From the NCBI GenBank assembly GCA_964419395.1, contig CAYQPL010000001.1:1-62919 (forward strand): a stretch of DNA of 62,919 nucleotides, read 5' to 3'. Both the position numbers and the translations under genes were made by a program. Shown here one piece after another: positions 6,918-39,689 of the stretch (positions are counted from its first letter, which is position 1; each line of letters begins with the position of its first letter). The notes under the pieces were generated by a model. It had not been told where the DNA came from. It saw only the letters and a list, made by a program, of their open reading frames with translations, and did no database searches. Origin of the DNA: an uncultured Phenylobacterium sp. GTDB taxonomy: Bacteria > Pseudomonadota > Alphaproteobacteria > Caulobacterales > Caulobacteraceae.

Positions 6918-6945
6918 TGAGGGGCGCATCCCGCGCCGCGCGTAT
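6918..6945 (+). promoter_or_regulatory. CnrH-type ECF promoter upstream of copC
   Basis: TGAGGGG-N16-CGTAT. Confidence 0.75.
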
Positions 6946-6978
6946 GGGAAGACAGGTACACCAAGCTCGGGGAAACCT

Positions 6979-7353
6979 ATGTTCAACCGCAATCGTACTT
7001 CCATCTTCGCCGCAGTCGGTATCGCGGCCGCTCTTGTGGCGACCCAGGCGTCGGCCCACGCCCAACTGGTGAGTTCCAACCCGGCCGCCAACGCGACCGT
7101 TGCGGCCGCGCCGAAGACGATCACGCTCACCTTCAACGAGAAGCTCGCGCCGGCCTTCTCCAAGTTCGAGATCACCATGCCCGAGCATGGCGGCATGAAG
7201 GTCCCCGTGAAGACGACCGTCTCCGCCGACGGCAAGTCCATCACCGGCACGCCTCAAACCGCACTCGGCAAAGGCGCCTACAAGGTCGTGTGGACGGCGG
7301 CCTCGTCCGACGGCCACAAGATGACGGGCGAAGTGGCTTTCAAGGTTGGCTGA
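6979..7353 (+). CDS. copC: Periplasmic copper-binding protein CopC
   Basis: Signal peptide ending ASA, mature N-terminal His (HAQLVSSNP), C-terminal SSDGHKMTG. Confidence 0.92.
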   Translation: MFNRNRTSIFAAVGIAAALVATQASAHAQLVSSNPAANATVAAAPKTITLTFNEKLAPAFSKFEITMPEHGGMKVPVKTTVSADGKSITGTPQTALGKGAYKVVWTAASSDGHKMTGEVAFKVG

Positions 7354-8284
7354 CGTGCTCGAGCCTGCGGTCATCATCCTCAGGCTGCTGCAGTATGCCG
7401 GAGCGATGGTCCTCATGGGATCATCGCTCTTCTTCATCTATGCCCTGCCCCCCGCCGGCGCCGGCTCGGCCGCAGAAGCGCCCTGGGCCCGCCGGCTCTT
7501 GGCCGGCGCGGGCGCGCTCTTGGGGCTCGCCACCTTGCTCTGGATCGCCGCCCAGGCCAGCGTGCTGGCCGGATCCGTGGCGGAGGGCCTCAAACCCGAG
7601 ACGCTCGGCGCCGTGGTGACGACCATGGACCTCGGCAAGGCGGGCGTCCTTCGGGCCGGGGTCGCCGTCCTCGCGACGATCCTCGCGCTTATGCTGAAGC
7701 CGGCGCCGACCAGCTGGTTCATGGCGGCCGGATTGGGGGCCATTGCGACGGCCACCTTCGCCTGGATGGGTCATGGGGCGGCGACCGAGGGGCCGGGCGG
7801 ATTGATCCACCTCGTCTCGGACATCTTTCACAGCTGGGCGGGCGCAGTCTGGATCGGCGCGCTCGTGGCGTTCGCGCTGATCTTGCGCACCCGCAGCCCT
7901 ACGCCCGCAGGCCTGCTTGCCCTGCACCGAGCACTGCACGGCTTTTCAGGCGTCGGCACGCTGCTGGTGGCGGTCCTGGTGGCGAGCGGGCTCGCCAACA
8001 GCTGGTTTCTGGTCGAACCGGATCGGATCACAAGCCTTTGGACCACGCCCTACGGGCGGCTCCTGAGCCTGAAGTTGCTCCTGTTCATGGCGATGCTGGG
8101 TCTCGCGGCCGCCAACCGCTTCCGACTGACGCCTGCCCTCGCCCATGGCTTGGACGAGCCATCGCGGCAGGGCGAGGCGCTCGCTGATCTGCGCCGCAGC
8201 ATCGCGCTGGAGACCGCCGCGGCGCTCGGCGTCGTGGCCCTCGTGGCCTGGTTCGGCACGCTGGCGCCGCCGGCCTCGATGTGA
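7346..8284 (+). CDS. copD: Copper homeostasis membrane protein CopD
   Basis: Overlaps copC; WMGHG, HSWAGAVWIG, YGRLLSLKL and LAAANRFRL motifs. Confidence 0.9.
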   Translation: MADVLEPAVIILRLLQYAGAMVLMGSSLFFIYALPPAGAGSAAEAPWARRLLAGAGALLGLATLLWIAAQASVLAGSVAEGLKPETLGAVVTTMDLGKAGVLRAGVAVLATILALMLKPAPTSWFMAAGLGAIATATFAWMGHGAATEGPGGLIHLVSDIFHSWAGAVWIGALVAFALILRTRSPTPAGLLALHRALHGFSGVGTLLVAVLVASGLANSWFLVEPDRITSLWTTPYGRLLSLKLLLFMAMLGLAAANRFRLTPALAHGLDEPSRQGEALADLRRSIALETAAALGVVALVAWFGTLAPPASM

Positions 8285-8354
8285 AGTCATGACGCCCCGC
8301 CGCGACACGCGAAATCGGATGACAACGGGCGCCGGGGCGCTACCCTCGTGGACG

Positions 8355-8735
8355 ATGCGCTTCCTGCTCGCCCTGCTGGCGGTGATCGGCCTCCTGGCCA
8401 GCCCGGCGTCCGCCGCGGCGGCCCAGGCGGTTTGCCTGGGCCATGGCGAGGCGATGATGCCCATGGCGATGCCGGACATGCCGGGAATGGACCACGCCGA
8501 CGGCAAGGCCGACCCCTGCTGCGACCCCGCCAGCGACAAGGCGCCCTCCCACCACGACGCCATGCCCTGCCTTCTCGCCTGCATGGCCATGTGCGGCGTG
8601 ACCGCAGCGCTCCCCAGCGCCGCACCTGTCAGCCTCGCGAAACCTGACCATGGCGCGCCGCCGCCCGGGCGGATGGCGTCTTTGACGCCTCATGACCCGG
8701 AACGCCTCGAACGACCTCCCAGACCGATCTCCTGA
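8355..8735 (+). CDS. Exported Cys/Met/His-rich CopL/DUF2946-like leader protein ending RLERPPRPIS
   Basis: ATG 8355 within ORF 8145..8735; signal peptide; MMPMAMPDMPGMDH, PCC, CLLACMAMC. Confidence 0.7.
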   Translation: MRFLLALLAVIGLLASPASAAAAQAVCLGHGEAMMPMAMPDMPGMDHADGKADPCCDPASDKAPSHHDAMPCLLACMAMCGVTAALPSAAPVSLAKPDHGAPPPGRMASLTPHDPERLERPPRPIS

Positions 8736-8828
8736 ACCCTGCGCCGCCTCTACGGCGGCGCATCGCGTGCAGAACCCGGCCGGATTCCGTCCGGCCACGA
8801 TGATCGATCCCACTCGGGAGAGTTTCCC

Positions 8829-9089
8829 ATGACCTATCGCATTCACCTGACCGTAGCGGCGCTGGCCCTCGGTCTCGTCGCGGCCGCAGGCGCCGCCGCC
8901 GCCCAGCCCTACGGCAAGGGCGGCAATTACAGCATGGCGCAGGCCCAAAAGCCGCCGGCGGCCGAAGCCCGCCCCGCGCGGGACTGCGACTGTCCGATGA
9001 TGAAGGGCGACCAGGCCATGCGCGAGCAGTGCATGACCATGATGCCGGAGCATGCGCCACCCGCGCCCAAGAGCGGCCCGGCCCGTTGA
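8829..9089 (+). CDS. Small exported Met/Cys-rich putative metal-binding protein
   Basis: GGGAG RBS; signal peptide; CDCPMMKGDQAMREQCMTMM. Confidence 0.65.
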   Translation: MTYRIHLTVAALALGLVAAAGAAAAQPYGKGGNYSMAQAQKPPAAEARPARDCDCPMMKGDQAMREQCMTMMPEHAPPAPKSGPAR

Positions 9090-9209
9090 TCGCGACCGCC
9101 GCGCGCCCCCTATCCCCTTGGGCGCGCGGTGAGCGAGGGCGTCGGCGGCCGGTTAACCTGGCCGCCGGCGCTTACGCGTCATCTCCTGTTCTTTCCGGAG
9201 GAAATCCTC

Positions 9210-22924: not shown

Positions 22925-22955
22925 CAGGTGGGGCTTCCAACGATGGGAAGGTCAA
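22925..22955 (-). promoter_or_regulatory. CueR box/promoter for copZ-copG
   Basis: Minus strand TTGACCTTCCCATCGTTGGAAG. Confidence 0.85.
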
Positions 22956-23599: not shown

Positions 23600-24685
23600 C
23601 TAAAACCATGCGCGCAGGCCGACGACGAAACGCGTGCTCTCCGCGTCTTCCCCGTGGGCGCGCACGAAGTCCGCGGTGTCGCCGAACGCGCGCTCGTAGG
23701 AGACCCCGATGTAAGGGGCGAACTCCCGGCGGATCTCGTAGCGAAGCCGCACGCCGAGTTCGCCAGTCGACAGGCCCGAACCGATCTGGCTTTCAGGAAT
23801 GTCCTGGGCCGCAAACTCGAGTTCCGCCCGCGGCTGCAGGATGAGCCGCTGCGTCAGGCGGAAATCGTAGCTGCCCTCGACGCGAGCGAGCAGATCGCCC
23901 TTCTCGGACAGGAACAGCGAACCTTCGGCCTCGAACCAGTACGGGAACATCGCGTCCACAGCGAGCGTCGCGTAGGCGCGCGAGCGCGGCTCCAGGTCGT
24001 AACGGATGCCGGCCTGCACGTCCGTGTAGCGGGCGACCGCGCGAGAATAGAGGAACTGCACCTCCGCAGCTTCCACCCCTTCGCGTGATTGACCTTCGCC
24101 CTCGGTCTTGAAGACGAACCGATTGATGTCGCCGCCGTACCAGCCTTCGACCTCCCAGCTGTAGCGGTCGCCGTTCGGCGCCCACTCCAGGAGATCCGCC
24201 TGGAGCTTGGAGACGCGCGAGCCCCCGTGCTCGTCCGCGAGAATCCCTCGGGCGCGCTGCATCCGCCCCGACCCGAAGACCTGATCGGCCACATTGTCGG
24301 TGATCACGGCCGGCGCCGGCGCATTGCCGACGGGCAAGTCGGCCGCAGTCTGGCCGCCTTCCATCGGCGCCATCGTGTGTCCCGCGTGGGGATCCGCTGG
24401 GGCCGGCATGGCGTGCCCGGCATGGGGGTCCGCGGGCGCTGCTGAGGCTTCGGAGCCTTGGGTCGGCTGCGATGGGCTCGAGGCCTTCGGCTCCGGCATC
24501 GCGTGGCCGGCATGGGGGTCGGCCGACGGCTTCGGCGCGGCGGGCATGGCGTGGCCTGCGTGCGGATCCGTGGGCCCCGCGGGCTGCGCCGGCATCGCGT
24601 GAGCGGCGTGAGGATCAGCGGCCTGGGCGACGGCGGCTGTGGCCGAGCTGGCCAGCGCCAGCGCTAGGAGGGAGGTCCGGATCAT
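23600..24685 (-). CDS. copB: Outer-membrane copper resistance protein B
   Basis: Signal peptide; repeated DPHAGHAM; GWYGGD; RLRYEIRREFAPYIG; terminal RAWF. Confidence 0.93.
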   Translation of the reverse strand: MIRTSLLALALASSATAAVAQAADPHAAHAMPAQPAGPTDPHAGHAMPAAPKPSADPHAGHAMPEPKASSPSQPTQGSEASAAPADPHAGHAMPAPADPHAGHTMAPMEGGQTAADLPVGNAPAPAVITDNVADQVFGSGRMQRARGILADEHGGSRVSKLQADLLEWAPNGDRYSWEVEGWYGGDINRFVFKTEGEGQSREGVEAAEVQFLYSRAVARYTDVQAGIRYDLEPRSRAYATLAVDAMFPYWFEAEGSLFLSEKGDLLARVEGSYDFRLTQRLILQPRAELEFAAQDIPESQIGSGLSTGELGVRLRYEIRREFAPYIGVSYERAFGDTADFVRAHGEDAESTRFVVGLRAWF

Positions 24686-26541
24686 GCCGCCGCTCCTTCG
24701 ACCGGACGCACCTTGAAGACTTGGAACATGCCCGCGTGCATGTGGTAGAGCATGTGGCAGTGGAAGGCCCAGTCACCGCCCTCGGCGGTGAAATCGAACG
24801 ATACCTTGCCGCCCGGCATCACGTTCACCGTATGTTTCCGCGGCAGATGGCCGACCGGCCCATGCACCAGCTCGAAGAAATGGCCGTGCAAGTGGATGGG
24901 GTGCGTCATCATCGAGTCGTTGATGAGGGTGACGCGCACGCGCTCACCGGCTCGGAAGGAATAGGCCGGCGGATTCTCGCTGAATTTCCACCCGTCGAAG
25001 CCCCAGATGAACCGCTCCATGTTGCCGGTGAGATGGATGTCCATCGCGCGATCCGGCGGCCTCGGGTCGGGGTTGGGGTCCAGGGCGATGAGGTCCTTGT
25101 AGACCAGCACCCGATGGCCGACGCTTTCCAGCCCAAGGCCGGGATCGCCGGTGCGATCCATCGGCATGGGCGCGATCATCTGCACGCCTGGCCCCTTCTT
25201 GATTTGAGGAGCCTTTGACCAGTCCAGCATGTTCATTTCCATGCCGCCCATGTCGCCCATCACATCCGAGCCACGCTGGCGCGGCGGAGCCATGCCGGGC
25301 GGCGGCGCGGCCGCCGCCATGCCCGGCATCGCGCCGTGATCCATCCCCGGCATGCTGGAGTGGTCCATCCCAGGCATCTGCGAATGGTCCATCCCGGACA
25401 TGGCCCCGTGCGCGGACATGTCCATGCCCATGTCCTTCATGGTCAGGATGGGCCGCTCACGTAGCGGCGGCACGGCCGCGCTCATCCCGGCGCGGGGCGC
25501 CAGGGTCGCCCGGCCCATGCCGGAGCGGTCGATCGCCTCCGAAACAATCGTGTAGGCGCGATCCTCGGTCGGCTGGACGATCACGTCGTAGGTCTCGGCG
25601 TTGCCGATCTGGAACTCGTCCACCTCGACGGGACGCACGTTCTGGCCGTCGGCCGCCACGACCGTGAGCTTCAGGCCCGGAATGCGGACGTTGAAGACCA
25701 TCTGCGCCGCGCTGTTGATGAAGCGCAAGCGCACCCGCTCGCCGGGTTTGAAGAGCCCCGTCCAGTTGTCCTTGGGGCCATGACCGTTGACGAGGAAGGT
25801 CATCACCGCGCCGGTGACGTCCGAGATGTCCGTCGGGTCCATGAGCATCTTGGCCCATTCGATCCGTTCGGCCAGCGTCTGGTCCTTGCCCGCAAGCAGG
25901 CCGGCGATCGTCTGGCGCTGATAGTTGAAGACCCCGCCCTGCTGCTTCAGCCGCTTGAAGATCAGGTGCGGGTGCATCTCGCTATGGTCGGCCAGCACCA
26001 GGACGTGCTCGCGGTCGTAAGCGACTGGATCGGGCCCGGCCGGCTCGATGACGATGGGGGCGTAGTGCCCTTCCGCCTCCTGCAGACCCGAGTGGCTGTG
26101 GTACCAGTAGGTGCCCGACTGGATGACCGGGAACTCGTAGACGAAGGTCTCGCCGGGGCGGATCCCAGGAAAGCTGACCCCCGGAACACCATCCATCTGG
26201 AACGGCACCAAGATGCCGTGCCAATGGATCGACGTGTCTTCGTCGAGGGTGTTCGTCACTGCGATCCGGACCCGCTGACCTTCCTTCAGACGAATGAGCG
26301 GCCCGGGGACGGTCCCATTGATCGTCACCGCGTGGCGGCGCTGGCCGTCGATCGTGATCGGCGTGTGGCCGATCGTCAGCTTGATGTCGTCGCCCGAAAG
26401 GGTCGGCAGGGTCGAGGTCAGGCCCGGCGTCGCGCTCTGCGCCCACGCGGGCAGCAGCGTACTGATCGCCGCTCCGCCCCCGAGGATGGCCGCCCCTTTG
26501 ATCAGGGCGCGGCGGTCAAGGTCAGGTCGTGGCCTGGACAT
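24682..26541 (-). CDS. copA: Tat-exported multicopper oxidase CopA/PcoA
   Basis: ATG 26541 (MSRPRPDLDRRALIKG); HWHG, WYHSH, HPIHLHGH, HCHMLYHM; Met-rich MDHSxMPG insert. Confidence 0.95.
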   Translation of the reverse strand: MSRPRPDLDRRALIKGAAILGGGAAISTLLPAWAQSATPGLTSTLPTLSGDDIKLTIGHTPITIDGQRRHAVTINGTVPGPLIRLKEGQRVRIAVTNTLDEDTSIHWHGILVPFQMDGVPGVSFPGIRPGETFVYEFPVIQSGTYWYHSHSGLQEAEGHYAPIVIEPAGPDPVAYDREHVLVLADHSEMHPHLIFKRLKQQGGVFNYQRQTIAGLLAGKDQTLAERIEWAKMLMDPTDISDVTGAVMTFLVNGHGPKDNWTGLFKPGERVRLRFINSAAQMVFNVRIPGLKLTVVAADGQNVRPVEVDEFQIGNAETYDVIVQPTEDRAYTIVSEAIDRSGMGRATLAPRAGMSAAVPPLRERPILTMKDMGMDMSAHGAMSGMDHSQMPGMDHSSMPGMDHGAMPGMAAAAPPPGMAPPRQRGSDVMGDMGGMEMNMLDWSKAPQIKKGPGVQMIAPMPMDRTGDPGLGLESVGHRVLVYKDLIALDPNPDPRPPDRAMDIHLTGNMERFIWGFDGWKFSENPPAYSFRAGERVRVTLINDSMMTHPIHLHGHFFELVHGPVGHLPRKHTVNVMPGGKVSFDFTAEGGDWAFHCHMLYHMHAGMFQVFKVRPVEGAAA

Positions 26542-26572: not shown

Positions 26573-26603
26573 GTGATGGGGCTTCCCACTGTGGGAAGGT
26601 CAA
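26573..26603 (-). promoter_or_regulatory. CueR box/promoter for copAB
   Basis: Minus strand TTGACC followed by perfect dyad CTTCCCAC-N-GTGGGAAG (26582-26598). Confidence 0.88.
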
Positions 26604-26623: not shown

Positions 26624-26651
26624 CTACGCAGCTCGGGGTCCTCGCCCCTGA
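26624..26651 (-). promoter_or_regulatory. CnrH-type ECF promoter for copAB
   Basis: Minus strand TCAGGGG-N16-CGTAG. Confidence 0.6.
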
Positions 26652-26662
26652 ACTTCTGAGGC

Positions 26663-27235
26663 TTAAATCGCCGAGCGGTCGAGAAGCTCCGCAAGCTGCT
26701 GGCGGGCACGGTAGACGCGCGTCTCTACGGTCTTGACGCTCACCCCCAAAAGCAAGGCCGCCTCCTGCTGGGTGAGCTCGTCGAAATAGGTCAGGAGCAG
26801 CGGCTCCTTGAGCTTGGTCGGCAGGCGGTCGATGGCCTTCTGAACGGCGGCCCGGCGCTGCGCCGAGACGACGGACTCCTCCCCGTCGGGCGCCGGATCC
26901 GCTTGCGCCTGCGCCTCGCTCGATTGGTCGTCCTTCTCGCCCAGGATGAACCGGCGAACCGCCAGGCGGCGGGCGCGATCACGGCACTTGTTGAGGGCGA
27001 TGGCGCGCAGCCAAACCGGGAACGCCCGCCGATCGTCGAAACGCGCGAGCGCCTTCCACGCCGCTACGAAGGTCTCCTGCACGACGTCGACGGCCGCGTC
27101 GGCGTCGCCCACATAACGGCGCACGAAGCCGTACAGCGCAGGCTTGTGCCGCCGCATGAGCGTGGTGAACGCCCGATCCTCCCCGCCCAGGGCGCGCAGG
27201 ACGAGATCGGCGTCCGATTCCTCACCAACCGTCAC
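26663..27235 (-). CDS. ECF sigma factor, CnrH/NccH-like
   Basis: DVVQETF, WLRAIALNKCRD, LTQQEAALLLGVSVKTVETRVYRAR; third gene of a cnrYXH-like triad. Confidence 0.9.
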   Translation of the reverse strand: MTVGEESDADLVLRALGGEDRAFTTLMRRHKPALYGFVRRYVGDADAAVDVVQETFVAAWKALARFDDRRAFPVWLRAIALNKCRDRARRLAVRRFILGEKDDQSSEAQAQADPAPDGEESVVSAQRRAAVQKAIDRLPTKLKEPLLLTYFDELTQQEAALLLGVSVKTVETRVYRARQQLAELLDRSAI

Positions 27236-27672
27236 GGGGTCTGTTCGGTGAGGGCCTCGGCGACGCGTTTGTCGAATTGCGCAGCCTGGTCCGGCGTCAA
27301 CACGGTGCGCATCGCCAGGACGTGCAGGATGGTTTCGTTCTGAAGCGCCCCCATGGCGTCGTGGAAGCGATCCACGGCGGCCTTCACCTCCGGCGAGTAC
27401 TCGTGGCGGACCTGGATGGCCCGGGCGAGCTCGGCGTTCGCCGCTCTCAGTTCGGCCTCTCGCGCGCGGCGCCGGACGGCGAAATCCTGCTCGAGCACGT
27501 CCAGCCGCTTCCGCTGCTCGGCCGACAGCTTCAGTTCTTCATGGACGAATTCATGAAGCGAAGGTTGGTGACGCTGATCGTAGATGTAGCGCGCGCCGAT
27601 CCACGTCCCGCCGGCGGCGGCGATGACGGTCAGGACCAACGTGAGAATAAGCCCTCGGCCGAAGGAGCTCAT
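27232..27672 (-). CDS. Periplasmic heavy-metal sensor, CnrX/NccX-like
   Basis: N-terminal TM; HEFVH, LDVLEQDF and LHVLAMR match the CnrX His/His/Glu/His/Met ligand pattern; VLTPDQ. Confidence 0.85.
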   Translation of the reverse strand: MSSFGRGLILTLVLTVIAAAGGTWIGARYIYDQRHQPSLHEFVHEELKLSAEQRKRLDVLEQDFAVRRRAREAELRAANAELARAIQVRHEYSPEVKAAVDRFHDAMGALQNETILHVLAMRTVLTPDQAAQFDKRVAEALTEQTP

Positions 27673-27962
27673 CCGTGGTGATCCAACAGCGTCGAAGGCG
27701 CCAGTTCCGCCTGAATGGAAAAGGCGGACACCTCCTGGGATTGCGAGGCGACGGCGGCCGCGGTCGCGCCGCCGCTCGCCACGCCCAATCCGAGGGCGCC
27801 GCCGACGGCTGCGGCCCGCACCGCTAAGAGCGTGGGGGCGGCCGCCCGCGCCTGGCGCACGCGCTCGACGCCCTGCCAGACCCTCGACTCCAGCTGCTGA
27901 TAGCCGGCGGGCGTTGGCTCGGATCGAAGCGCTCTCAGTTCGTCATCAAGTCTGTCGTTCAT
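27669..27962 (-). CDS. Small single-TM anti-sigma factor, CnrY-like
   Basis: MNDRLDDELRAL...LESRVW, one TM segment, C-terminal LAPSTLL; ATGA overlap with the sensor gene. Confidence 0.75.
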   Translation of the reverse strand: MNDRLDDELRALRSEPTPAGYQQLESRVWQGVERVRQARAAAPTLLAVRAAAVGGALGLGVASGGATAAAVASQSQEVSAFSIQAELAPSTLLDHHG

Positions 27963-27993: not shown

Positions 27994-28021
27994 ATACGCA
28001 TGCGCTGCGGCGCGCCCCTCA
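27994..28021 (-). promoter_or_regulatory. CnrH-type ECF promoter (autoregulatory) for the cnrYXH-like operon
   Basis: Minus strand TGAGGGG-N16-CGTAT(A). Confidence 0.8.
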
Positions 28022-28023
28022 AC

Positions 28024-28050
28024 TGAGGGCCGCGCCGGCGCCCTGCGTAT
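28024..28050 (+). promoter_or_regulatory. CnrH-type ECF promoter for the acyltransferase
   Basis: TGAGGGC-N15-CGTAT, back-to-back with the previous promoter (2-bp gap). Confidence 0.7.
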
Positions 28051-30151: not shown

Positions 30152-30178
30152 TGAGGGGGCGATCGTCATGCTGCGTAT
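30152..30178 (+). promoter_or_regulatory. CnrH-type ECF promoter for Cu-ATPase 1
   Basis: TGAGGGG-N15-CGTAT. Confidence 0.7.
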
Positions 30179-30215: not shown

Positions 30216-30246
30216 TTGACCTTCCCACGATAGGAAAGTGCAGGTT
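30216..30246 (+). promoter_or_regulatory. CueR box/promoter for Cu-ATPase 1
   Basis: TTGACCTTCCCACGATAGGAAAG; 19-bp spacer to CAGGTT. Confidence 0.8.
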
Positions 30247-30409
30247 CATCTATAGGGATGCAGCTTGTCGACAGTGACGCCTCGCCGTCTGCGGCGCGTC
30301 TTGCGACGGTGCGAAATCCGCAGGATCTCGAGCCCGGATCAAGGGTTCCGCACCAGCGGCTGCGTAGCGATTGATGACGGCGGCTGCTCCGCCGATGGGA
30401 GCCACACGC

Positions 30410-32782
30410 ATGGCCGATGACCCCGAAAAACACGCCCACCACCATCGTGGCCATGAGCATCACGACGACCAACGCCTGGGAGCGGACGGCGCCGAGACCG
30501 TGAAGGATCCGGTCTGCGGCATGGACGTCGATCCGCGCACAACACCGCACAAGGCGAGCTTTGAAGGCCAGGAGTACTTCTTCTGCTCCGCGGGCTGTCA
30601 GGCGAAATTCCAGAAGGAGCCTTCCCGCTATACGCCAAGCGCGCCACGGCCCACGCCCGCGGCCCCCGTCGGCACGATCTACACCTGCCCAATGCACCCC
30701 CAAATCCGTCAGGTCGGGCCTGGAGCCTGCCCGATCTGCGGAATGGCGCTGGAACCGGAGGTGATGACCTCCGAGACGGGCCCCAGCCCCGTGCTCAAAG
30801 ATATGACCCGGCGCTTTTGGGTGGGCCGCGTCCTCGCCCTGCCCGTTCTAGCGCTCGAGATGGGCGGCCATCTCACCGGCCTGACGATGCGGTTGGGCGG
30901 GCAGACCTCCGCCTGGATCCAGTTTGCGCTCGCGACGCCCGTGGTGCTCTGGTCGGGCTGGCCGTTCTTTGAACGCGGCGCGCGCTCGGTCGCGACCCGC
31001 AGCCTGAACATGTTCACGCTGATCGCCATGGGTGTCGGCGTGGCCTGGCTCTACAGCGTCGTCGCGACCTTGGCGCCGCACTTCTTCCCGCCGGCCTTCC
31101 GCCGCCCGGACGGCTCGGTTCCGATCTACTTCGAAGCGGCGGCCGTCATCACGGTGCTCGTGCTTCTGGGCCAGGTCCTGGAGCTGCGCGCGAGGGAGCG
31201 CACCTCGGGCGCCATCAAGGCGCTCCTCGACCTGGCGCCGAAGACCGCTCGCAGGCTGCGCGAGGACGGATCGGACGAGGAGGTGACACTGGACTTGATC
31301 GCCGCGGGCGATCGCCTGCGCGTGCGGCCGGGCGAAAAGGTGCCGGTCGACGGCGAGGTGATAGAGGGTCGGGTCTCGATCGACGAATCCATGGTGACCG
31401 GCGAATCCATGCCGGTGACCAAGGCGCCCGGCGCAAAGGTCGTCGGCGGGTCGATCAACAAGACTGGCTCGTTCATCATGCGCGCCGAGAAGATTGGCGC
31501 GGACACCCTGCTCTCGCAGATCGTGCAGATGGTGGCCCAGGCCCAGCGCAGCCGCGCCCCCATCCAACGGATGGCCGATCAGGTGTCCGGCTGGTTCGTT
31601 CCGAGTGTGATCGGGATCGCCCTCGTTGCGTTCGCCGTCTGGGCGCTCATCGGTCCGGATCCGCGTTTTGCGTTCGGCCTGGTCGCGGCCGTCTCGGTGC
31701 TGATCATCGCCTGTCCCTGCGCGCTCGGGCTCGCCACGCCGATGTCCATCATGGTCGGTGTCGGCCAAGGCGCGCGCGCCGGCGTTCTCATCAAGAACGC
31801 CGAGGCGCTCGAGCGCTTCGAAAAGATCGACACCCTCGTGATCGACAAGACGGGGACGCTCACCGAGGGCCGGCCGGCGGTTACGGCCATTCGACCGGCC
31901 CAGGGCCATGATGAAACCGAAGTGCTGCGCCTCGCGGCCAGCCTGGAGCGGGCGAGCGAGCACCCGCTCGCCGACGCCCTTGTGCGGGCGGCGACGGAGC
32001 GCGAGCTATCTCTGTCGCAACCGGCCGACTTCGACTCACCCGTCGGCAAGGGGGTGCTGGGCGTCGTCGATGGTCGACGGCTGGCGATCGGCTCCGGAAA
32101 GTTCCTCGACGAACAGGGGGTCGACACCCGCGCCCTGGAGGCGGCGGCCGATGCGCTCCGAGCGGAGGGCGCCACAGCCATCTTCATGGCGCTGGACGGG
32201 CAGGCCGCCGCCATCTTTGCGATCGCCGACCCGATCAAGGCCACGACGCCCTCCGCCGTCCAGGGACTGAAGGCCGAGGGCGTTCGCCTCGTCATGATGA
32301 CCGGCGACAACCGCACGACCGCCCAGGCGGTCGCACGTAAGCTCGGGATAGACGAGGTCGAAGCCGAGGTCCTACCGCAGGACAAGGCAGCCGTCGTCGA
32401 GAAGCTCAGGAGCGAAGGCCGCAAGGTGGCCATGGCCGGCGATGGCGTGAACGACGCGCCTGCGCTTGCCGCCGCCGAGGTCGGCGTAGCCATGGGCGCG
32501 GGCGCTGACGTCGCGATCGAGAGCGCGGGCGTCACCCTCCTGAAGGGTGATCTGGACGGCATCGTCAAGGCGAGGCGATTGTCGCGCGCCGTCATGCGCA
32601 ATATCCGCGAGAACCTGTTCTTCGCCTTTGCCTACAACGTCGCCGGCATCCCAATCGCGGCCGGTGTCCTCTACCCGTTTACGGGCTGGCTCCTTTCGCC
32701 GGCGATCGCTGCGGCGGCCATGGCGTTGTCGAGCGTGAGCGTCGTAGGCAACGCCCTCCGGCTTCGTGGGGCGCGCCTCTAG
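30410..32782 (+). CDS. P1B-1 Cu(I)/Ag(I) ATPase with His-rich N-terminus, YHS domain and CPMHP domain
   Basis: DPVCGM...FCSAGC, YTCPMHP...CPICGM, TGES, CPCALG, DKTGT, GDGVND, YN, MALSS. Confidence 0.95.
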   Translation: MADDPEKHAHHHRGHEHHDDQRLGADGAETVKDPVCGMDVDPRTTPHKASFEGQEYFFCSAGCQAKFQKEPSRYTPSAPRPTPAAPVGTIYTCPMHPQIRQVGPGACPICGMALEPEVMTSETGPSPVLKDMTRRFWVGRVLALPVLALEMGGHLTGLTMRLGGQTSAWIQFALATPVVLWSGWPFFERGARSVATRSLNMFTLIAMGVGVAWLYSVVATLAPHFFPPAFRRPDGSVPIYFEAAAVITVLVLLGQVLELRARERTSGAIKALLDLAPKTARRLREDGSDEEVTLDLIAAGDRLRVRPGEKVPVDGEVIEGRVSIDESMVTGESMPVTKAPGAKVVGGSINKTGSFIMRAEKIGADTLLSQIVQMVAQAQRSRAPIQRMADQVSGWFVPSVIGIALVAFAVWALIGPDPRFAFGLVAAVSVLIIACPCALGLATPMSIMVGVGQGARAGVLIKNAEALERFEKIDTLVIDKTGTLTEGRPAVTAIRPAQGHDETEVLRLAASLERASEHPLADALVRAATERELSLSQPADFDSPVGKGVLGVVDGRRLAIGSGKFLDEQGVDTRALEAAADALRAEGATAIFMALDGQAAAIFAIADPIKATTPSAVQGLKAEGVRLVMMTGDNRTTAQAVARKLGIDEVEAEVLPQDKAAVVEKLRSEGRKVAMAGDGVNDAPALAAAEVGVAMGAGADVAIESAGVTLLKGDLDGIVKARRLSRAVMRNIRENLFFAFAYNVAGIPIAAGVLYPFTGWLLSPAIAAAAMALSSVSVVGNALRLRGARL

Positions 32783-33479: not shown

Positions 33480-33533
33480 CCCCAGACAAGACCGATCGGA
33501 GACTCGGCTTGTGGCCGATCATTCTGGGCGCGC

Positions 33534-33564
33534 TTGACCTTCCTATCATGGGAAACTCTATCTG
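33534..33564 (+). promoter_or_regulatory. CueR box/promoter for Cu-ATPase 2-cueR
   Basis: TTGACC-TTCCTATCATGGGAAACTC (19 bp)-TATCTG. Confidence 0.85.
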
Positions 33565-33592
33565 AGCTGGGCATCGCCGTTAGGAGCCGTCA

Positions 33593-36103
33593 ATGCCCGA
33601 ACAAATCCTTCCGCCCCTGGAGATTCCGGTCCTTGGGATGACCTGCGCGAGCTGCGTCGGCCGGGTGGAGAAAGCGATCTCCGCTGTCCCCGGCGTCGCA
33701 CGCGCCACAGTCAATCTTGCCGCCGAGCGCGCGCATGTGGAGCTCACGCCGGAAGGGCACACCCAGGCGGTCATCGAGGCGATCCGCAAGGCCGGCTACG
33801 AGCCGCTCGAGCGCACGCTGACGCTGAAGGTCGAAGGCATGACCTGCGCAAGCTGCGTCGGTCGCGTCGAGCGCGCGCTCCGCGGGGCGCCGGGCGTCCT
33901 TTCGGCCGAGGTCAACCTCGCCACCGAGCGAGCCAGCCTGACCGTGCTTGAGGGCGCCGATCCCGCCGCCCTCGTCCTGGCCGTAGAGAAAGCTGGCTAC
34001 CGCGCCGCGCCGATTGCGGAGCAAACGCCGGACTTAGCCGACCGGGAACGGGCGGCGCGCGAGGCCGAAATCGGCGGCTTGAAGCGAGCGGTCCTCGTCG
34101 CGTCGCTCGCCACCGCGCCGCTCTTCCTGGTCGAGATGGCGCGCCACTTCCTGCCGGGCGCCCATCATCTTCTCGCCAGCACCCTGGGCGAGCAGCCCTG
34201 GCGGCTGATCAGCTTCGCTCTCGCCGCCCTGGTGCTCTTCGGGCCCGGCCTGCGGTTCTATCGCAAGGGCGTGCCGAACCTGCTGCGGCGGACGCCGGAC
34301 ATGAACTCCCTCGTCGTGCTCGGCACGACGGCGGCGTTCGCCTACTCGGCGGTCGCCACCCTGGCGCCCGGCCTGCTGCCCGCCAGCGCCAACCACATCT
34401 ACTTCGAGGCGGCGGCGGTCATCGTCACCCTGATCCTGCTGGGCCGGCTGTTCGAAGCCCAGGCGAAGGGCCGGACCAGCGAGGCGATCAAGCGCCTGAT
34501 GACCCTTCAGGCGAAGACGGCGCGCGGCGAGCGGAACGGCGAGGCCCGCGAGGTTCCGATCGCCGACGTCGTCGTGGGCGACGTCGTGCTCGTCCGGCCC
34601 GGCGATCGCGTCCCCGTGGACGGTGAGGTCCTGGACGGCGCCTCCTTCGTCGACGAATCGATGATCACGGGCGAGCCGCTTCCGGTCGAGAAGGGACCGG
34701 GCGCCGAGGTGGTCGGCGGGACGGTCAACAAGACCGGCGCCTTCCGCTTCCGCGCCACCAAGGTGGGCTCGGCCACCATGCTCGCGCAGATCGTGCGGAT
34801 GGTCGAAACCGCCCAAGGCGCAAAGCTGCCGATCCAGGCGCTGGTCGACAAGGTGACGTCCTGGTTCGTGCCGGCGGTGATCGCGGTAGCGGCCACAACT
34901 TTCGCCGTTTGGCTGGTCTTCGGCCCGAGCCCGGCGCTCAGCTTCGCCCTGGTCAACGCCGTGGCCGTGCTGATCATCGCCTGCCCCTGCGCCATGGGAT
35001 TGGCCACGCCCACCTCGATCATGGTGGGGACGGGGAAGGCCGCCGAGCTCGGGATTCTCTTCCGGCGCGGCGAGGCCCTGCAAAGCCTGCGCGACGTCCA
35101 GGCGATCGCCTTCGACAAGACCGGCACGCTCACCCTCGGTCGACCGGCGTTGACGCGTTTGCAGACAGTCGCGCCATGGAGCGACGCCGAGCTGCTGCGG
35201 CTGGTAGCGGGCGCGGAAAGCCGCTCAGAGCACCCGATCGCCCAGGCCATCGTCGAAGCGGCGCTCGAGCGCGGCCTCGACGTTCCGGCGCCGTCGGCGT
35301 TCGATGCAACGCCAGGCTTCGGTGTGAACGCGCGGGTGGATGGCCGCCGAGTCCAAGTCGGCGCCGACCGGTTCATGACGAAGCTGGGCGTCTCCATCGC
35401 GCCCTTCGCCGACGACGCCGAGCGCCTCGCGGCCGCGGCCGAAACCCCGCTGTACGCGGCGATCGACGGCGAGCTCGCCGCCATCCTGGCGGTTTCAGAT
35501 CCGATCAAGCCGACGACGCCGGAGGCGCTCGCGGCGCTGCACGCCGCCGGTCTGAAGGTGGTGATGATCACCGGCGACAATGGCCGCACCGCCCGCGCCG
35601 TTGCGGGGATTCTGGGCGTCGACGATGTCGTCGCGGAGGTGCTTCCCGACGGCAAGGTCGCCGCCGTCCAGGACCTTCAGCGCCGCTATGGCCGCGTCGC
35701 CTTCGTCGGCGACGGAGTCAACGATGCGCCGGCGCTCGCCGCCGCCGACGTCGGCGTCGCCATGGGCGCGGGCACGGACATCGCCATTGAAAGCGCTGAT
35801 GTCGTGCTGATGCGGAGCGACCTGCGCAGCGTGGTCACCGCCATCCGCCTGAGCCGGGCCGTCCTTCGGAACATCCGCCAGAACCTGGCCTGGGCGTTCG
35901 GCTACAACGTAGTGCTCATCCCCCTGGCCGCTGGGCTGCTCTATCCCATCCTGGGATGGCTGCTCTCGCCGATGGTCGCCGCCGGCGCCATGGCCCTGTC
36001 CAGTGTGAGCGTGCTCGCCAACGCCCTGCGCTTGCGCGCCTTCAAAGCCGACGCTGCGTTCGTCGGGCCACGCGCCGATCTTCTCAAAGGAGCCGTCAAA
36101 TGA
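33593..36103 (+). CDS. P1B-1 Cu(I) ATPase with two HMA domains (ActP/CopA type)
   Basis: Two GMTCASC motifs, TGEP, CPCAMG, DKTGT, SEHP, GDGVND, YN, MALSS. Confidence 0.95.
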
Positions 36104-36540
36104 ACATCGGTCAGGCGTCGAAGGCCTCCGGCGTGACTGCCAAGATGATCCGCTACTACGACGAGATCGACCTGGTGCGGCCGGCGAGCCGGACGGGCTC
36201 GAACTACCGCGAATACGACGATCGCCAGATCAACGAACTTCGCTTCATCAAGCGCGCTCGCAGCCTGGGCTTCTCTATGGAAGAGATCACCCAGTTGCTG
36301 TCGCTATGGCGGGACCGCGCCCGGCCCAGCCGGGATGTGAAGGCGATCGCGGACCGGCACGTGGCCGACCTCGACGCACGCATCGCCGAGATGCAGGCCA
36401 TGGCCGACACGCTGCGCCACCTGTCCCACTGCTGCGCCGGCGACGACCGCCCCGACTGCCCGATCCTCGCAGATCTAACGGAAGGCGCGGAGCCATCCGA
36501 GCCTGCTCGACGGCGGCCCTCCTTCAATCACCAGTCCTAG
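36100..36540 (+). CDS. cueR: Cu(I)-responsive MerR-family regulator
   Basis: ATGA overlap; [20 protein letters not shown]; [13 protein letters not shown]. Confidence 0.93.
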
Positions 36541-36573
36541 AATAGCCGCTCAGACGCAAATGGAGATGCACGC

Positions 36574-36598
36574 GGAACTTCCCGTCTGAAGAAGAGTT
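36574..36598 (+). promoter_or_regulatory. Candidate EcfG/SigT promoter for the RTX-repeat gene
   Basis: GGAAC-N16-AGTT. Confidence 0.45.
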
Positions 36599-36675
36599 GC
36601 GCACTCATGTTGCCACCCCGCAATGAAACGGCAGCAAACATTCCCATCGTAGCAATCTTCACCGAGGGGCCGCCG

Positions 36676-38154
36676 ATGTCACACAAGCTCTCCCACGATT
36701 GGAGGGATGCGCCCCTCCAGCACTTGGCCGATCAGTACATGGCCGCGGACGGCTTTACCTTTGATTTCAACGCGGGCCGAGAGCGGTACGACTACCAAGT
36801 TTCCGTGGGAGATGGAGGTCGCGATGTTCTGGGCGGGCGTGGCGACCGCGACCACTTTTGGGGCCTCGGCGGCGATGACCAGCTGTCCGGCACGCGCCAG
36901 AACGACGTGCTCTATGGCGACCACGGTCGCGACACGCTCAGCGGCGGCGGCGGCGCAGATCGTCTTACCGGCGGCGGCGGCGGCGATCATCTCTATGGCG
37001 GCCGAGACGCCGACGCTTTGATGGGCGGGGACGGGGCCGACTATCTCGACGAGGGCGCAGGGCACGGCGATCTCGAGGGCGGCATGGGGGATGACACCCT
37101 CGTCGGCGGGGCCGGACCCGACGCCTTTGCGGTGGACCCGACCAGCGGAAATGACGTGATCCGGGACTTCACGGCCGGCCCCGGCATGTTCGACCATCTG
37201 GCGCTGCGCGACCTTCGTTGGGAGGACCTGAGTTTCGAGGATACGGCCGCCGGCGTCCGCGTCAGTTGGCAGGGCGGTTCAGTGCTGTTGGAAGGCGTGG
37301 CGAAGTCGCAACTCGCCCAGGACGACTTCATGTTTGCCGACGCGCCCGATCTACCGCCGGCGTCGCGCGATGCGGCCGGCGCCGCTCCGGAACGCGCAAC
37401 CCCGAGCGAGGAAGGCCCCTCCTTCGGACGTCACGAACTGCCCGGCGAACGCTTCGATCATGCAGCGGACGCCGCCCTTCGCAACGGACAGGTCAGTCTC
37501 GCCTTCGTCGGTGACGAGGCCTACCAGGTGATCATCGGCGAGCGCCAGGGAGACGCCCTGACCGGCGCCGCCAGCGTCGACAATGTCTTCGGCCGCGACG
37601 GCGCAGACACTTTGGTCGGCTTAGGCGGCGACGACGTCCTTCAGGGCGACGCCGGAGATGACCGACTCGATGGCGGCGACGGCATGGATCGCCTCGACGG
37701 CGGCATGGGCGCAGACACCCTCGTCGGCGGAGCCATGGTCGACGACGTCATGGGCATGGACGGCGCCGACTCCATCGACGCCGGCGCCGGCCACGACATG
37801 ATCGAAGGCGGGATGGGCGCCGACACCATTACCGGCGGAACCGGCGCTGACGCCTTCATCGTCGATCCCGACAGTGGCTTCGACGTGATCGCCGACATGG
37901 AGGTGCGGGGTGAAGCCGAGGGCGCCTTCGACCATTTGGCGCTGCGAGACATCCGGCCGGACCAGGTGACGGTCGTCGACCGGACGGAGGGCGCGTTCGT
38001 CTCCTGGAATACGGACCAGGACGCTGAGCCAGAAGGCGGCGTTCTCCTTCAGGGGGTCTTCAAGGCTGATTTGCGCCAGAGTGACTTCATGTTCATCGAC
38101 GCGCCCGGCTTTGTCGCAGGAATCAGCGACGCTGGATCTGACTGGATCTTCTGA
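36676..38154 (+). CDS. Hemolysin-type (RTX) Ca-binding repeat protein with two tandem modules
   Basis: Many GGxGxDxLx nonapeptides; duplicated FDHLALRD...QxDFMF; C-terminal DWIF typical of T1SS substrates. Confidence 0.85.
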   Translation: MSHKLSHDWRDAPLQHLADQYMAADGFTFDFNAGRERYDYQVSVGDGGRDVLGGRGDRDHFWGLGGDDQLSGTRQNDVLYGDHGRDTLSGGGGADRLTGGGGGDHLYGGRDADALMGGDGADYLDEGAGHGDLEGGMGDDTLVGGAGPDAFAVDPTSGNDVIRDFTAGPGMFDHLALRDLRWEDLSFEDTAAGVRVSWQGGSVLLEGVAKSQLAQDDFMFADAPDLPPASRDAAGAAPERATPSEEGPSFGRHELPGERFDHAADAALRNGQVSLAFVGDEAYQVIIGERQGDALTGAASVDNVFGRDGADTLVGLGGDDVLQGDAGDDRLDGGDGMDRLDGGMGADTLVGGAMVDDVMGMDGADSIDAGAGHDMIEGGMGADTITGGTGADAFIVDPDSGFDVIADMEVRGEAEGAFDHLALRDIRPDQVTVVDRTEGAFVSWNTDQDAEPEGGVLLQGVFKADLRQSDFMFIDAPGFVAGISDAGSDWIF

Positions 38155-38237
38155 ACACGCCTGCCTGTCCCACATGAGGGCCGTTCCTGCTGAGCCAAGA
38201 TCCTTTGGTCGCAGGCAGAGCGCGGCCGATGTCGGGC

Positions 38238-38870
38238 TCAATGGTCGTGTCCAGGATGTTCCTCGGCCGCCTCGGGAGCCATGGTCATGCCGGCCACCCC
38301 GCCTTCATTCATGAGCTCGTCGTGTCCACGCGGCGCCGCCTCGGTCATCGTCCTGTAGGCGTCCGGCGAAAGGGCCGGCAGCTTGCGCAGGAACGCGACC
38401 ATGTCCCAGATCAGCTCGTCACTATGGGTACGTCCCCAAGCCGGCATCGCCGTCATCTTGACGCCGTGCTTGATGGTCCAGAAGGCTTCGGCGTCGTCGC
38501 CGTGATAGTGGCGCGCCAGCTCCGGCGCCTGGGGATAGAGACCCTGACTCAATTCTGACGGCGCCATTCCCGGTGCGAGGTGACAGCCGGAGCACATTTC
38601 GGCGTAGAGGCCGGCGCCGGACGCGATGCGTGCCGGACTGTCGAGATCCCCTGGCGCCTGGATGCGACTGGCCCGAGCCTTGATCGAGCGCTCCCGGACG
38701 GCTTCGATCAGGGCGTAGACGGGTCGGGTGTGGGGCGCATCGGCGCCAATGTTGTAAACACCCAGGGCTATGACCGCGCCGGCGACGATCGCGATCAACA
38801 GCGCGGCGACCGCAAGCACGGTGAGCGCGAAGAGGTGTGTGCGCGGTTCGCGAAGAGACCAGTTTGCCAA
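38238..38870 (-). CDS. Membrane-anchored monoheme cytochrome c with His/Met-rich tail
   Basis: N-terminal TM; CSGCH; GLYPQAP; HGVKMTAMPAWG; GGAGG RBS before TTG. Confidence 0.88.
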   Translation of the reverse strand: MANWSLREPRTHLFALTVLAVAALLIAIVAGAVIALGVYNIGADAPHTRPVYALIEAVRERSIKARASRIQAPGDLDSPARIASGAGLYAEMCSGCHLAPGMAPSELSQGLYPQAPELARHYHGDDAEAFWTIKHGVKMTAMPAWGRTHSDELIWDMVAFLRKLPALSPDAYRTMTEAAPRGHDELMNEGGVAGMTMAPEAAEEHPGHDH

Positions 38871-38975
38871 CAGGTTGCCTCCTTAGCAGCCTGGGACCTG
38901 ACCCAAGCAGCAGGCTCCGCCATGGCCGGCTGGGCAGGTCATTCCGCAGCCATCCGACCTCGCAGCTCTAAACAG

Positions 38976-39003
38976 ATACGCGCCAGCCCACGGAACGCCC
39001 TCA
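38976..39003 (-). promoter_or_regulatory. CnrH-type ECF promoter for the cytochrome c gene
   Basis: Minus strand TGAGGGC-N16-CGTAT. Confidence 0.65.
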
Positions 39004-39026
39004 ACACGCACAGAGGCTGAGCAGGA

Positions 39027-39689
39027 ATGCCGGTCCTCGCTCAGGACACCACCAGCGGCGACTTGAGGCCGACAGCGACGGGTGCGGGGAGCGCGCCTGC
39101 GGGTGCGTATACGCCATCAGAGGCCGTCGATCTCAAAAGGCCTGAGCTGAACGGGAAACGACGATTGGAAGCAATTGGCGACAGGCTGTTCGAGATCGTC
39201 GCGCGTACTCGGGATGAGGTCGTGATGGGTCCCATGAGCGACCCGGCCGAAGCCCGACTGATAGCGGGCGTCACGCGATATTTCACGGCCGTCGCCTGGA
39301 TCGCGGCGGACGCCGAACTGGCGCGACGCCAGTTACAAGGCGTCAAGCCGAAGGCCTTCATGAGCGCCTTCCTCCAACAGATGCACCAAGAGGTTCGGCG
39401 CCTGCAGCTCGCGATCGAGCCAGGTTGCACCGATGACGAGATCTGGCGGATGCTCTTTGAGGACGCGGACCTCTACAGCCGAGCCTTGCAGGCGGCCAGG
39501 ACCCAACGGTGCGAAGACGTGCCGCTCGCTGCCGGGTTGCGATGGCTCGACGAGCGGTCGCTCTTCAATCTCGCGTCCGCCGAGGCTTACGGCGAGAGCT
39601 TCGCGGTCCTGACGATTGGGACCGCGATCCCGCCTCAGATCGTCGCTGTCTTCGAGATGATGCGCCTAGAGGGGACCGGCTCCAGCTAG
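39027..39689 (+). CDS. Hypothetical protein (start may be downstream, e.g. TTG 39165)
   Basis: Only long ORF in the interval; no motif recognised; an ECF-like TGCGGGG-N16-CGTAT lies at 39083-39110 in its 5' part. Confidence 0.5.
   Translation: MPVLAQDTTSGDLRPTATGAGSAPAGAYTPSEAVDLKRPELNGKRRLEAIGDRLFEIVARTRDEVVMGPMSDPAEARLIAGVTRYFTAVAWIAADAELARRQLQGVKPKAFMSAFLQQMHQEVRRLQLAIEPGCTDDEIWRMLFEDADLYSRALQAARTQRCEDVPLAAGLRWLDERSLFNLASAEAYGESFAVLTIGTAIPPQIVAVFEMMRLEGTGSS

What the first reader, a model, noticed from the sequence alone, without database searches (positions are those of the whole stretch)
6918..39110. A CnrYXH-type ECF system apparently rewired to run a copper regulon of 7-8 promoters
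Seen: the motif TGAGGG(G/C)-N15/16-CGTA(T) sits in sense orientation upstream of copC (6918), the multicopper oxidase (26651, minus, TCAGGGG...CGTAG), the anti-sigma gene itself (28021, minus), the acyltransferase (28024), Cu-ATPase 1 (30152), Cu-ATPase 2-cueR (33452, CGAGGGG) and cytochrome c (39003, minus). A one-mismatch copy lies at 39083. I did not see it in front of ars, chr, czc or vir genes. Known: it resembles the Cupriavidus CnrH promoter (-35 CRAGGGG, -10 CCGTATA), and CnrYXH is a Ni/Co system. The local triad (26663-27962) keeps the CnrX ligand pattern and adds an HDAM motif. Inference: a periplasmic-copper-sensing ECF cascade, taking the place of CopRS/CusRS (absent from this window), controls the whole Cu module.
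Basis: partly seen in the sequence, partly recalled or inferred. Interest (0 to 1): 0.85.

Follow-up and report, generated by a model that had tools for sequence, protein, structure and literature searches.

The report
CnrH-type sigma switch for copper genes
A conjugative plasmid carries a three-gene relative of the nickel/cobalt switch CnrYXH whose promoter motif precedes its copper-resistance genes; it likely senses copper outside the cytoplasm and likely works beside the cytoplasmic copper regulator CueR, a layout common in related bacteria but untested at the bench.

Summary
The motif is real. All seven sites and the one-mismatch copy are at the stated coordinates, and a further site lies at 30340. 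A matrix trained on distant loci puts 6 of its 7 best genome hits in this window. The same AGGG-N16/17-CGTA pattern matches cnrYp and cnrCp. It precedes copA in 76 of 88 triad-linked loci but only 1 of 22 in genomes without a sensor match. The triad is ECF291/CnrYXH-type.

Corrections: (1) The sigma does not run the whole module. Four CueR-type promoters were missed; copA and both ATPases carry both inputs, copZ only CueR, copC only the sigma, csp3 neither. (2) 'Rewired' is unproven. The copper-linked form is the common one (76 of 82 sampled loci), and the direction of change is unresolved. (3) The copper gene context of ECF291 is already in print (2021 supplement), read there as Ni/Co sensing.

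Not found in print: a regulon map, the tandem CueR design, and an HxxM signature (78 of 81 versus 0 of 21 Cnr-type sensors). Copper sensing is inferred. The scan noted this system before in other genomes.

The parts
27669..27962 (-). CnrY-like single-pass anti-sigma factor (97 aa), first gene of the triad
   Evidence: Position -2 from the sigma, one hydrophobic segment 44-62, conserved C-terminal LAPSTLL. No Pfam CnrY hit. Weak profile match to CnrY over 31 N-terminal columns, probability 37%.
27232..27672 (-). CnrX-like membrane-anchored periplasmic metal sensor (146 aa); canonical ligands H40 H44 E61 H117 M121 plus H104-x-x-M107
   Evidence: PF13801; NccX/CnrX chains E about 1e-19; predicted fold matches CnrX, TM 0.77-0.85; residue table
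26663..27235 (-). CnrH-like ECF sigma factor (ECF291 type)
   Evidence: Best PDB hit CnrH 4cxf E 2.9e-30, next 3.5e-21; groups with CnrH against the genome's other ECFs, 99/92
6918..6945 (+). ECF promoter site before copC-copD (34 nt to ATG 6979); cusCBAF lies downstream on the same strand
   Evidence: copC has the site in 38 of 40 related upstream regions
26624..26651 (-). ECF promoter site before copA (multicopper oxidase)-copB
   Evidence: 76 of 88 in relatives
26573..26603 (-). CueR-type sigma70 promoter (TTGACC, dyad, 19-bp spacer) 48 bp downstream of the ECF site before copA
   Evidence: tandem at 44-50 bp in 27 of 88 related copA regions. E. coli CueR box consensus recalled, not from a call.
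27994..28021 (-). Autoregulatory ECF site before the anti-sigma gene (32 nt to ATG; cnrYp has 31)
28024..28050 (+). ECF site back to back with the autoregulatory one, before an acyltransferase-3 gene (28084-29256)
   Evidence: 12 of 16 in relatives
30152..30178 (+). Distal ECF site before Cu-ATPase 1
30216..30246 (+). CueR-type promoter between the two ECF sites of ATPase 1
30340..30367 (+).
   Evidence: matrix score 15.0; equivalent site in L029, L030, L035, L172
33452..33479 (+). ECF site before Cu-ATPase 2-cueR
   Evidence: both inputs in 12 of 23 related regions
33534..33564 (+). CueR-type promoter before ATPase 2-cueR
22925..22955 (-). CueR-type promoter before copZ (no ECF site of its own)
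   Evidence: CueR 16 of 23, ECF 0 of 23
38976..39003 (-). ECF site before a cytochrome c gene (38238-38870)
   Evidence: 5 of 8 in relatives
39083..39110 (+). Variant site TGCGGGG..GCGTAT before an uncharacterised ORF (start uncertain)
   Evidence: score 16.7; same variant kept in the two relatives whose alignments were displayed, L172 and L060
36100..36540 (+). cueR, Cu(I)-responsive MerR-family regulator, in the operon behind an ECF site
   Evidence: TIGR02044 171.8 bits, cut-off 147.4
24682..26541 (-). copA multicopper oxidase, followed by copB, DUF305, copZ and DUF411 down to 22179
   Evidence: TIGR01480 above cut-off; Pfam
6979..8284 (+). copC-copD
   Evidence: NF033814 above cut-off; PF05425
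30410..36103 (+). Two Cu-translocating P1B ATPases (30410-32782 and 33593-36103)
   Evidence: TIGR01511 above cut-off for both

Best explanation
The window holds an ECF291 (CnrYXH-type) sensor, anti-sigma and sigma triad whose promoter motif precedes most of the plasmid's copper operons; it likely senses copper in the periplasm, would release its sigma factor to switch those operons on, and likely shares control with CueR rather than replacing it. Shown: gene identities, eight close sites plus one variant, their match to cnrYp/cnrCp, their co-occurrence with the triad, and four CueR-type promoters. Inferred from CnrYXH: metal binding by the X dimer, signal transfer to Y, release of H, autoinduction from 28021. 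Inferred from promoter layout: a two-compartment design. Genes for exported or envelope proteins (CopC/CopD, acyltransferase, cytochrome c; CusF-like proteins in relatives) carry the ECF site. The cytoplasmic chaperone CopZ carries only the CueR promoter. CopA oxidase and both ATPases carry both. Because cueR sits behind an ECF site, periplasmic copper would also raise CueR levels, a feed-forward loop. The H104/M107 pair is a likely copper-tuning feature; its role is untested.
For: Motif enrichment. Same pattern at cnrYp and cnrCp, with the same 31-32 nt distance to the Y start; the cnrYp start 23 bp before cnrY and -10 CCGTATA are reported in PMC13492112 (passages). In 65 distant loci, 144 of 221 seed matches lie just upstream of a copper-module gene, 1 upstream of another reference gene, 8 inside genes and 68 near no reference gene; the reversed pattern gives 50. 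copA: 76 of 88 near a triad versus 1 of 22 in genomes with no sensor match, that one a 70%-complete assembly; this genome's second copA lacks it. Split of inputs by gene. 76 of 82 profile- or protein-drawn sensor loci have copA/B/C/D nearby. H104 in 80 of 81 and M107 in 78 of 81 non-Cnr sensors, E and A in 21 of 21 Cnr-type. No CopS/CusS or CopR/CusR above cut-off. The cnr cluster itself is fully upregulated by copper in C. metallidurans (PMC7563307, passages), so this scaffold is compatible with a copper response.
Against: No transcription start or induction data exist for this system. All five Ni/Co ligands are intact, so Ni/Co binding is expected. In Sphingobium sp. ba1, 10 mM Ni upregulated copA, copB and a copC (PMC5557971); I could not tie those genes to a triad, and the homologous ALDH-adhP-copAB operon of S. 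cloacae has no site at its head, only before its last gene. HxxM versus E-x-x-A is one clade split with about ten other distinguishing columns, so it is not independent evidence of metal choice. L157 has copAB without HxxM; L166 and L059 have HxxM and drive a TonB receptor-PepSY operon with no cop gene in the locus; L249 drives an RND pump. Related loci are not independent, and loci L021-L100 were selected with an HxxM pattern. ATPase 1 homologues carry the ECF site in only 9 of 44 cases.
Confidence: 0.7

Rival explanations
1. The sites are this sigma's promoters, but the sensor is a broad transition-metal detector (Ni, Co and Cu through the unchanged CnrX site). Copper specificity comes from the target genes and from CueR, and HxxM is only a clade marker.
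For: All five CnrX ligands kept. The cnr cluster is induced by Cu, and a Cu-bound CnrX structure exists (3epv). Ni induces cop genes in a Sphingobium. Some triads drive a TonB receptor/hupE-linked unit or an RND pump instead of cop genes.
Against: H104/M107 are as conserved as the canonical ligands across 81 sensors, and they persist in sensors that have lost H40 or M121 (L152, L237, L252, L258). In this window no site precedes the czc or hupE genes.
Confidence: 0.2
2. The sigma is the single master regulator of the whole copper module and was rewired from a Ni/Co ancestor.
For: Sites head most copper operons; cusCBAF could be reached by one long transcript from 6918, since no terminator-like hit lies between copC and cusC; no CopRS/CusRS.
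Against: Four CueR-type promoters and a cueR gene; copZ, csp3 and cusC lack their own site in all related cases. The best tree nests the Cnr clade among copper-linked sigmas, though a sister position is not rejected (p-AU 0.467). The Cnr form was found in 1 of 401 genomes of its own order.
Confidence: 0.06
3. The motif is read by a chromosomal sigma or another factor, and the triad is a passenger.
For: The genome has 13 sigma70 region-2 matches. CGTAT-type -10 elements are shared by other ECF groups (PMC13492112 Table 4). One high-scoring site lies on another contig (C142).
Against: The motif tracks the triad (76 of 88 versus 1 of 22), precedes the triad's own first gene, and matches the tested CnrH promoters. 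The C142 -10 element is lost in both triad-positive relatives checked and kept in one of three triad-negative ones.
Confidence: 0.04

Closest known systems
CnrYXH of Cupriavidus metallidurans CH34 (pMOL28) and NccYXH; ECF group ECF291 (part of former ECF20)
   Same: Gene order Y-X-H; CnrH is the sigma's best solved relative; sensor fold and five ligands; promoter AGGG-N16/17-CGTA; autoregulatory promoter about 31-32 nt before Y.
   Different: Targets are several scattered copper operons, not cnrCBAT. The preferred promoter is TGAGGG..GCGTAT rather than CRAGGG..CCGTAT. The sensor has H104/M107 where CnrX has E/A. The anti-sigma lacks the Pfam CnrY signature. Several targets carry a second, CueR-type promoter.
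ECF291 group description in Casas-Pastor et al. 2021 (PMC7826278, supplementary text passages)
   Same: States that ECF291 members encode a multicopper oxidase, CopB and a heavy-metal protein at -1, with CopC/CopD in two subgroups, and a divergent CnrY-like anti-sigma at -2.
   Different: Reads the group as Ni/Co sensors controlling an efflux complex. Gives the promoter as TCTCC/TACGCA, and PMC13492112 Table 4 lists ATACGC/CCCTCA; TACGCA, ATACGC and CCCTCA are reverse complements of the elements found here, so the orientation appears reversed. No regulon, CueR link or HxxM in the passages seen.
CusRS/CopRS plus CueR two-compartment copper control (E. coli, Pseudomonas; recalled)
   Same: One input for periplasmic copper and one for cytoplasmic Cu(I), with partly separate targets.
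   Different: The periplasmic arm here is a sigma/anti-sigma/sensor cascade, not a histidine kinase and response regulator.
Copper-linked ECF sigmas CorE and CarQ (Myxococcus xanthus; PMC6851896 passages) and SigAb (Acinetobacter; PMC12153292 abstract)
   Same: ECF sigma activity rises with copper; CorE drives a multicopper oxidase and a Cu-ATPase (PMC10141476 passages).
   Different: CorE binds the metal itself in the cytoplasm. CarQ lacks a CnrX-type sensor in the passages seen. SigAb acts on metal genes indirectly.

Membership tests
ECF291 / CnrYXH-type system | ECF sigma most similar to CnrH | tested here: met
   Best PDB hit 4cxf, E 2.9e-30; one clade with CnrH against three other ECFs, 99/92. 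The ECF Hub group model itself was not available.
ECF291 / CnrYXH-type system | PF13801 heavy-metal protein with a transmembrane anchor at position -1, CnrX fold | tested here: met
ECF291 / CnrYXH-type system | Single-pass CnrY-like anti-sigma at position -2 | tested here: inconclusive
   Position, size and one hydrophobic segment fit. No Pfam CnrY hit, no CnrY hit in PDB, weak profile match. The group description says the Pfam domain is limited to two subgroups. Binding to the sigma was not tested.
ECF291 / CnrYXH-type system | Autoregulatory CnrH-type promoter before Y | tested here: met
   28021(-), same pattern and spacing as cnrYp; sequence match only
cnr/ncc Ni-Co resistance determinant (strict sense) | CnrX ligands H42 H46 E63 H119 M123 | tested here: met
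   H40 H44 E61 H117 M121
cnr/ncc Ni-Co resistance determinant (strict sense) | cnrCBA efflux operon directly after the sigma | tested here: not met
   copAB follows the sigma; no site before the czc-type RND genes at 51044-56773
cnr/ncc Ni-Co resistance determinant (strict sense) | Membership of the CnrH/NccH clade | tested here: not met
   Cnr clade 100/100 excludes the window sigma
cnr/ncc Ni-Co resistance determinant (strict sense) | Induction by Ni and Co | not testable with these tools
   needs reporters or RNA
CueR regulon | cueR gene plus sigma70 promoters with 19-bp spacer and CTTCC..GGAAG dyad | tested here: met
   TIGR02044 above cut-off; four promoters, and 4 of 6 genome matches to TTGACCTTCC lie in the window. 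Box consensus recalled.
CopRS/CusRS-controlled cop/cus system | CopS/CusS kinase and CopR/CusR regulator | tested here: not met
   Best genome scores 175.8 versus cut-off 292.55 and 234.7 versus 279.2; genome 94.9% complete

The most novel reading that the evidence does not exclude
The copper-linked triad is the main and possibly ancestral form of ECF291. It is the periplasmic copper sensor of Caulobacteraceae and sphingomonad metal islands, standing in for CusRS/CopRS and wired in tandem and feed-forward with CueR. Its H104/M107 pair forms a second, copper-selective site in the CnrX dimer, and the textbook Ni/Co CnrYXH is a derived offshoot that lost this pair.
Probability: 0.3. Interest if true: 0.75.

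Novelty: new variant of a known kind. Interest (0 to 1): 0.5.

Why it matters
How Caulobacteraceae and sphingomonads induce their cop genes is poorly known. This gives a readable promoter, a named sigma and a target list that can be tested with a few reporters. The system was found in 62 of 151 genomes of one alphaproteobacterial family and on 82 plasmid records. It also offers a natural pair of sensors on one solved scaffold (CnrX for Ni/Co, this one likely for Cu) for studying metal selectivity in the periplasm, and suggests that the published ECF291 consensus is given in reverse orientation. The gene context is already in print and the signalling mechanism is a known type, which limits the surprise.

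Tried and rejected
Transcript evidence: the run search found only contig-level RNA holders with small shares. Laying four of them showed cover from relatives but no start sites; one contig ending at 26605 is a single-study hint and was not used.

The monomer model gives the fold only.

Chromosomal target: the third-ranked matrix hit at C142:7291, before a cytochrome c gene, was rejected. Its -10 element is absent in both triad-positive relatives and present in one of three triad-negative ones.

Direction of evolution: not resolved (the first tree was the quick version, the second used 47 of 92 rows).

HxxM test: loci were left out because they were selected with an HxxM pattern.

Papers: Sphingobium ba1 Table S2 could not be read, so whether a triad is Ni-induced there is open. 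The original cnr promoter paper was not held. Eight searches found no experimental study of a copper-linked CnrYXH homologue; most subscription papers and bioRxiv supplements are not covered. A sequence search of the scan's notes returned nothing.
Full report
Setting. The window is the first 62.9 kb of a 112-kb contig. The rest of the contig encodes VirB8-11, a VirD4-type coupling protein, a relaxase, ParA/ParB and a RepA, so it is most likely a conjugative plasmid. The closest named relatives of the sensor are in Phenylobacterium. The copper module spans about 6.9-39 kb: copCD, cusCBAF, copAB-DUF305-copZ-DUF411, the triad, an acyltransferase, csp3-DUF305, two Cu-ATPases, cueR and a cytochrome c.

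Observation. The strict pattern has 6 matches in the genome, all in the window. A looser one has 7 of 17 in the window against 0.18 expected. To reduce circularity I trained a matrix on 124 distinct sites from 65 loci, leaving out the nearest relatives (L021-L036, L039, L040) and the cnr locus; the sites were still seeded with AGGG..CGTA. It yields 29 genome hits above 12 bits; 9 are in the window, including 6 of the top 7 and a new site at 30340. None lies outside 6918-39110 in the window.

The triad. The sigma's best solved relative is CnrH. The sensor matches NccX/CnrX, keeps all five ligands and has the CnrX fold in a confident monomer model (pLDDT 93.7). The first gene has the position, size and single hydrophobic segment of CnrY but matches it only weakly. 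The ECF291 description says the same of most members (supplement passages of PMC7826278). The genome has one sensor homologue.

The sites are very probably this sigma's promoters. (a) The same AGGG-N16/17-CGTA pattern lies at cnrYp and cnrCp of pMOL28. The -10 element ends 31 nt before cnrY there and 32 nt before the Y gene here; PMC13492112 places the cnrYp start 23 bp before cnrY and gives CCGTATA as verified (passages). (b) The motif moves with copper genes through many rearrangements. In the training loci 144 of 221 seed matches are just upstream of a copper-module gene, and the reversed pattern gives 50 matches in all. (c) It precedes copA in 76 of 88 distinct upstream regions near a triad, but in 1 of 22 usable regions from genomes with no sensor match (23 loci examined, one without upstream DNA; two near-misses scored 10-12 bits), and not before this genome's second copA. 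Kin are not independent, so these counts are descriptive.

Four CueR-type promoters (TTGACC, CTTCC..GGAA dyad, 19-bp spacer, A at the second -10 position) lie at 22955, 26603, 30216 and 33534, and cueR scores above its cut-off. The CueR box is recognised from recall of the E. coli copA promoter. In related loci the inputs split by gene. copC has ECF 38 of 40 and CueR 0. copZ has ECF 0 of 23 and CueR 16. copA has ECF 76 of 88, with a CueR promoter 44-50 bp downstream in 27. ATPase 2 has both in 12 of 23; ATPase 1 has ECF in 9 of 44. csp3 has neither (0 of 14), nor does cusC (0 of 17). So the sigma does not control the whole module. The pattern fits a periplasmic arm (ECF) and a cytoplasmic arm (CueR) that meet at copA and the ATPases, with cueR itself behind an ECF site. 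This reading is inferred from sequence alone. No CopS/CusS or CopR/CusR reaches its cut-off in the genome.

Distribution and the word 'rewired'. Of 82 loci drawn by protein or profile search and examined (a subset of the hits), 76 have copA/B/C/D nearby, 5 have other or too little context, and 1 is cnr. Twenty metagenome loci sought with a Cnr-type query all have E-x-x-A at 104-107, and cnrC or more of cnrCBA follows wherever the contig allows. In the sigma tree the Cnr clade is solid (100/100) and sits among copper-linked lineages, but monophyly of the copper-linked set is not rejected (p-AU 0.467). The copper-linked form is the common one; which came first is open.

The HxxM pair. H104 is present in 80 of 81 and M107 in 78 of 81 non-Cnr sensors, against E and A in 21 of 21 Cnr-type ones. 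It survives in four sensors that lost H40 or M121. His/Met pairs are typical copper ligands (established knowledge), so a copper-tuning role is plausible. Against it: this is one clade split with about ten other distinguishing columns; L157 has copAB without the pair; and L059 and L166 have the pair but drive a TonB receptor-PepSY operon. A dimer model could not be obtained.

Which metal. Target genes point to copper. The intact five-ligand site leaves Ni/Co possible. The cnr cluster is fully induced by copper in C. metallidurans (PMC7563307, passages), so the scaffold need not be changed to respond to copper. Nickel at 10 mM induced copA, copB and a copC in Sphingobium sp. ba1 (PMC5557971; parts 1-2 of 6 and passages; supplement unreadable). 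I could not link those genes to a triad, and the homologous operon in S. cloacae has no site at its head. I put about 0.93 on the sites being this sigma's promoters and about 0.75 on copper being the main physiological inducer given that.

Prior knowledge. The copper gene context of ECF291 is stated in the 2021 classification supplement, which nevertheless summarises the group as Ni/Co sensors for an efflux pump and lists promoter elements that include reverse complements of those found here. Reviews list CnrH under Ni/Co and only CorE and CarQ under copper (PMC6851896, PMC10141476, passages); SigAb is an indirect copper-stress sigma (PMC12153292, abstract). PMC7689651 passages gave the CnrX Met123 background. 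Eight searches found no bench study of the copper-linked form; other listed papers were seen as listings only. The scan's own notes record the same system in at least four other genomes; these are unchecked AI notes and were read after my analysis.

Verdict. A real, well-supported ECF291 regulon and a new variant of a known kind: a CnrYXH-type cascade attached to copper genes and sharing them with CueR. It is not a member of the cnr/ncc determinant in the strict sense. Interest 0.5.

Noticed in passing
L059:11044-15801, L166:1930-9200, L103:30460-35452 and about 18 other loci; not found in the window or genome: A TonB-dependent receptor-PepSY-PepSY-hutC unit recurs near the triad, with an ECF site at its head where checked; in L059 and L166 it directly follows the sigma with no cop gene in the locus. 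It may be a metal or metallophore transport arm of the regulon.
   Followed up: partly
window 27994-28050: Two ECF sites sit back to back with their -35 boxes 2 nt apart; the same divergent pair (Y one way; copC, acyltransferase, DUF411 or DUF2231 the other) recurs in many sphingomonad and Caulobacteraceae loci and may explain the reversed published consensus.
   Followed up: partly
window 28084-29256: An acyltransferase-3 (OafA-like) gene is a repeated ECF target (12 of 16), suggesting surface acylation as part of the copper response.
   Followed up: no
L152 (G263), L237, L252, L258: Sensors that lost canonical ligand H40 and/or M121 but keep H104/M107, in cop contexts: natural variants for testing which site signals.
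   Followed up: partly
L249 (G926), L154 (G088): Non-Cnr triads followed by an ECF site and an RND pump rather than cop genes; possible intermediates towards the cnr layout.
   Followed up: no
window about 1430-1460: A MerR-type promoter (TTGATCCTCTAGCGGCTAGAG dyad) precedes an HMA-CDF fusion gene; no MerR gene was found beside it.
   Followed up: partly
window 36607-38154: A calcium-binding RTX-repeat protein follows cueR and is kept at that place in L029, L035, L039 and L172; it scores far below toxin model cut-offs.
   Followed up: no
window 18117-20681: A fusion of NAD-dependent epimerase, SPW repeats and a VKOR domain lies inside the copper module with a GH15 gene and a CBS gene, without an ECF site.
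   Followed up: no
G009, G016, G018, G019, G035 and others: An identical 27-nt match to the motif (TGAGGGAAACTT...) recurs in many genomes and looks like part of 16S rRNA (recalled); it inflates naive genome-wide counts.
   Followed up: no
window 39717-42068: An ImmA/IrrE-type (Peptidase_M78) HTH protein with a DUF4411 partner and a resolvase separate the copper module from the ars-chr-czc block.
   Followed up: no
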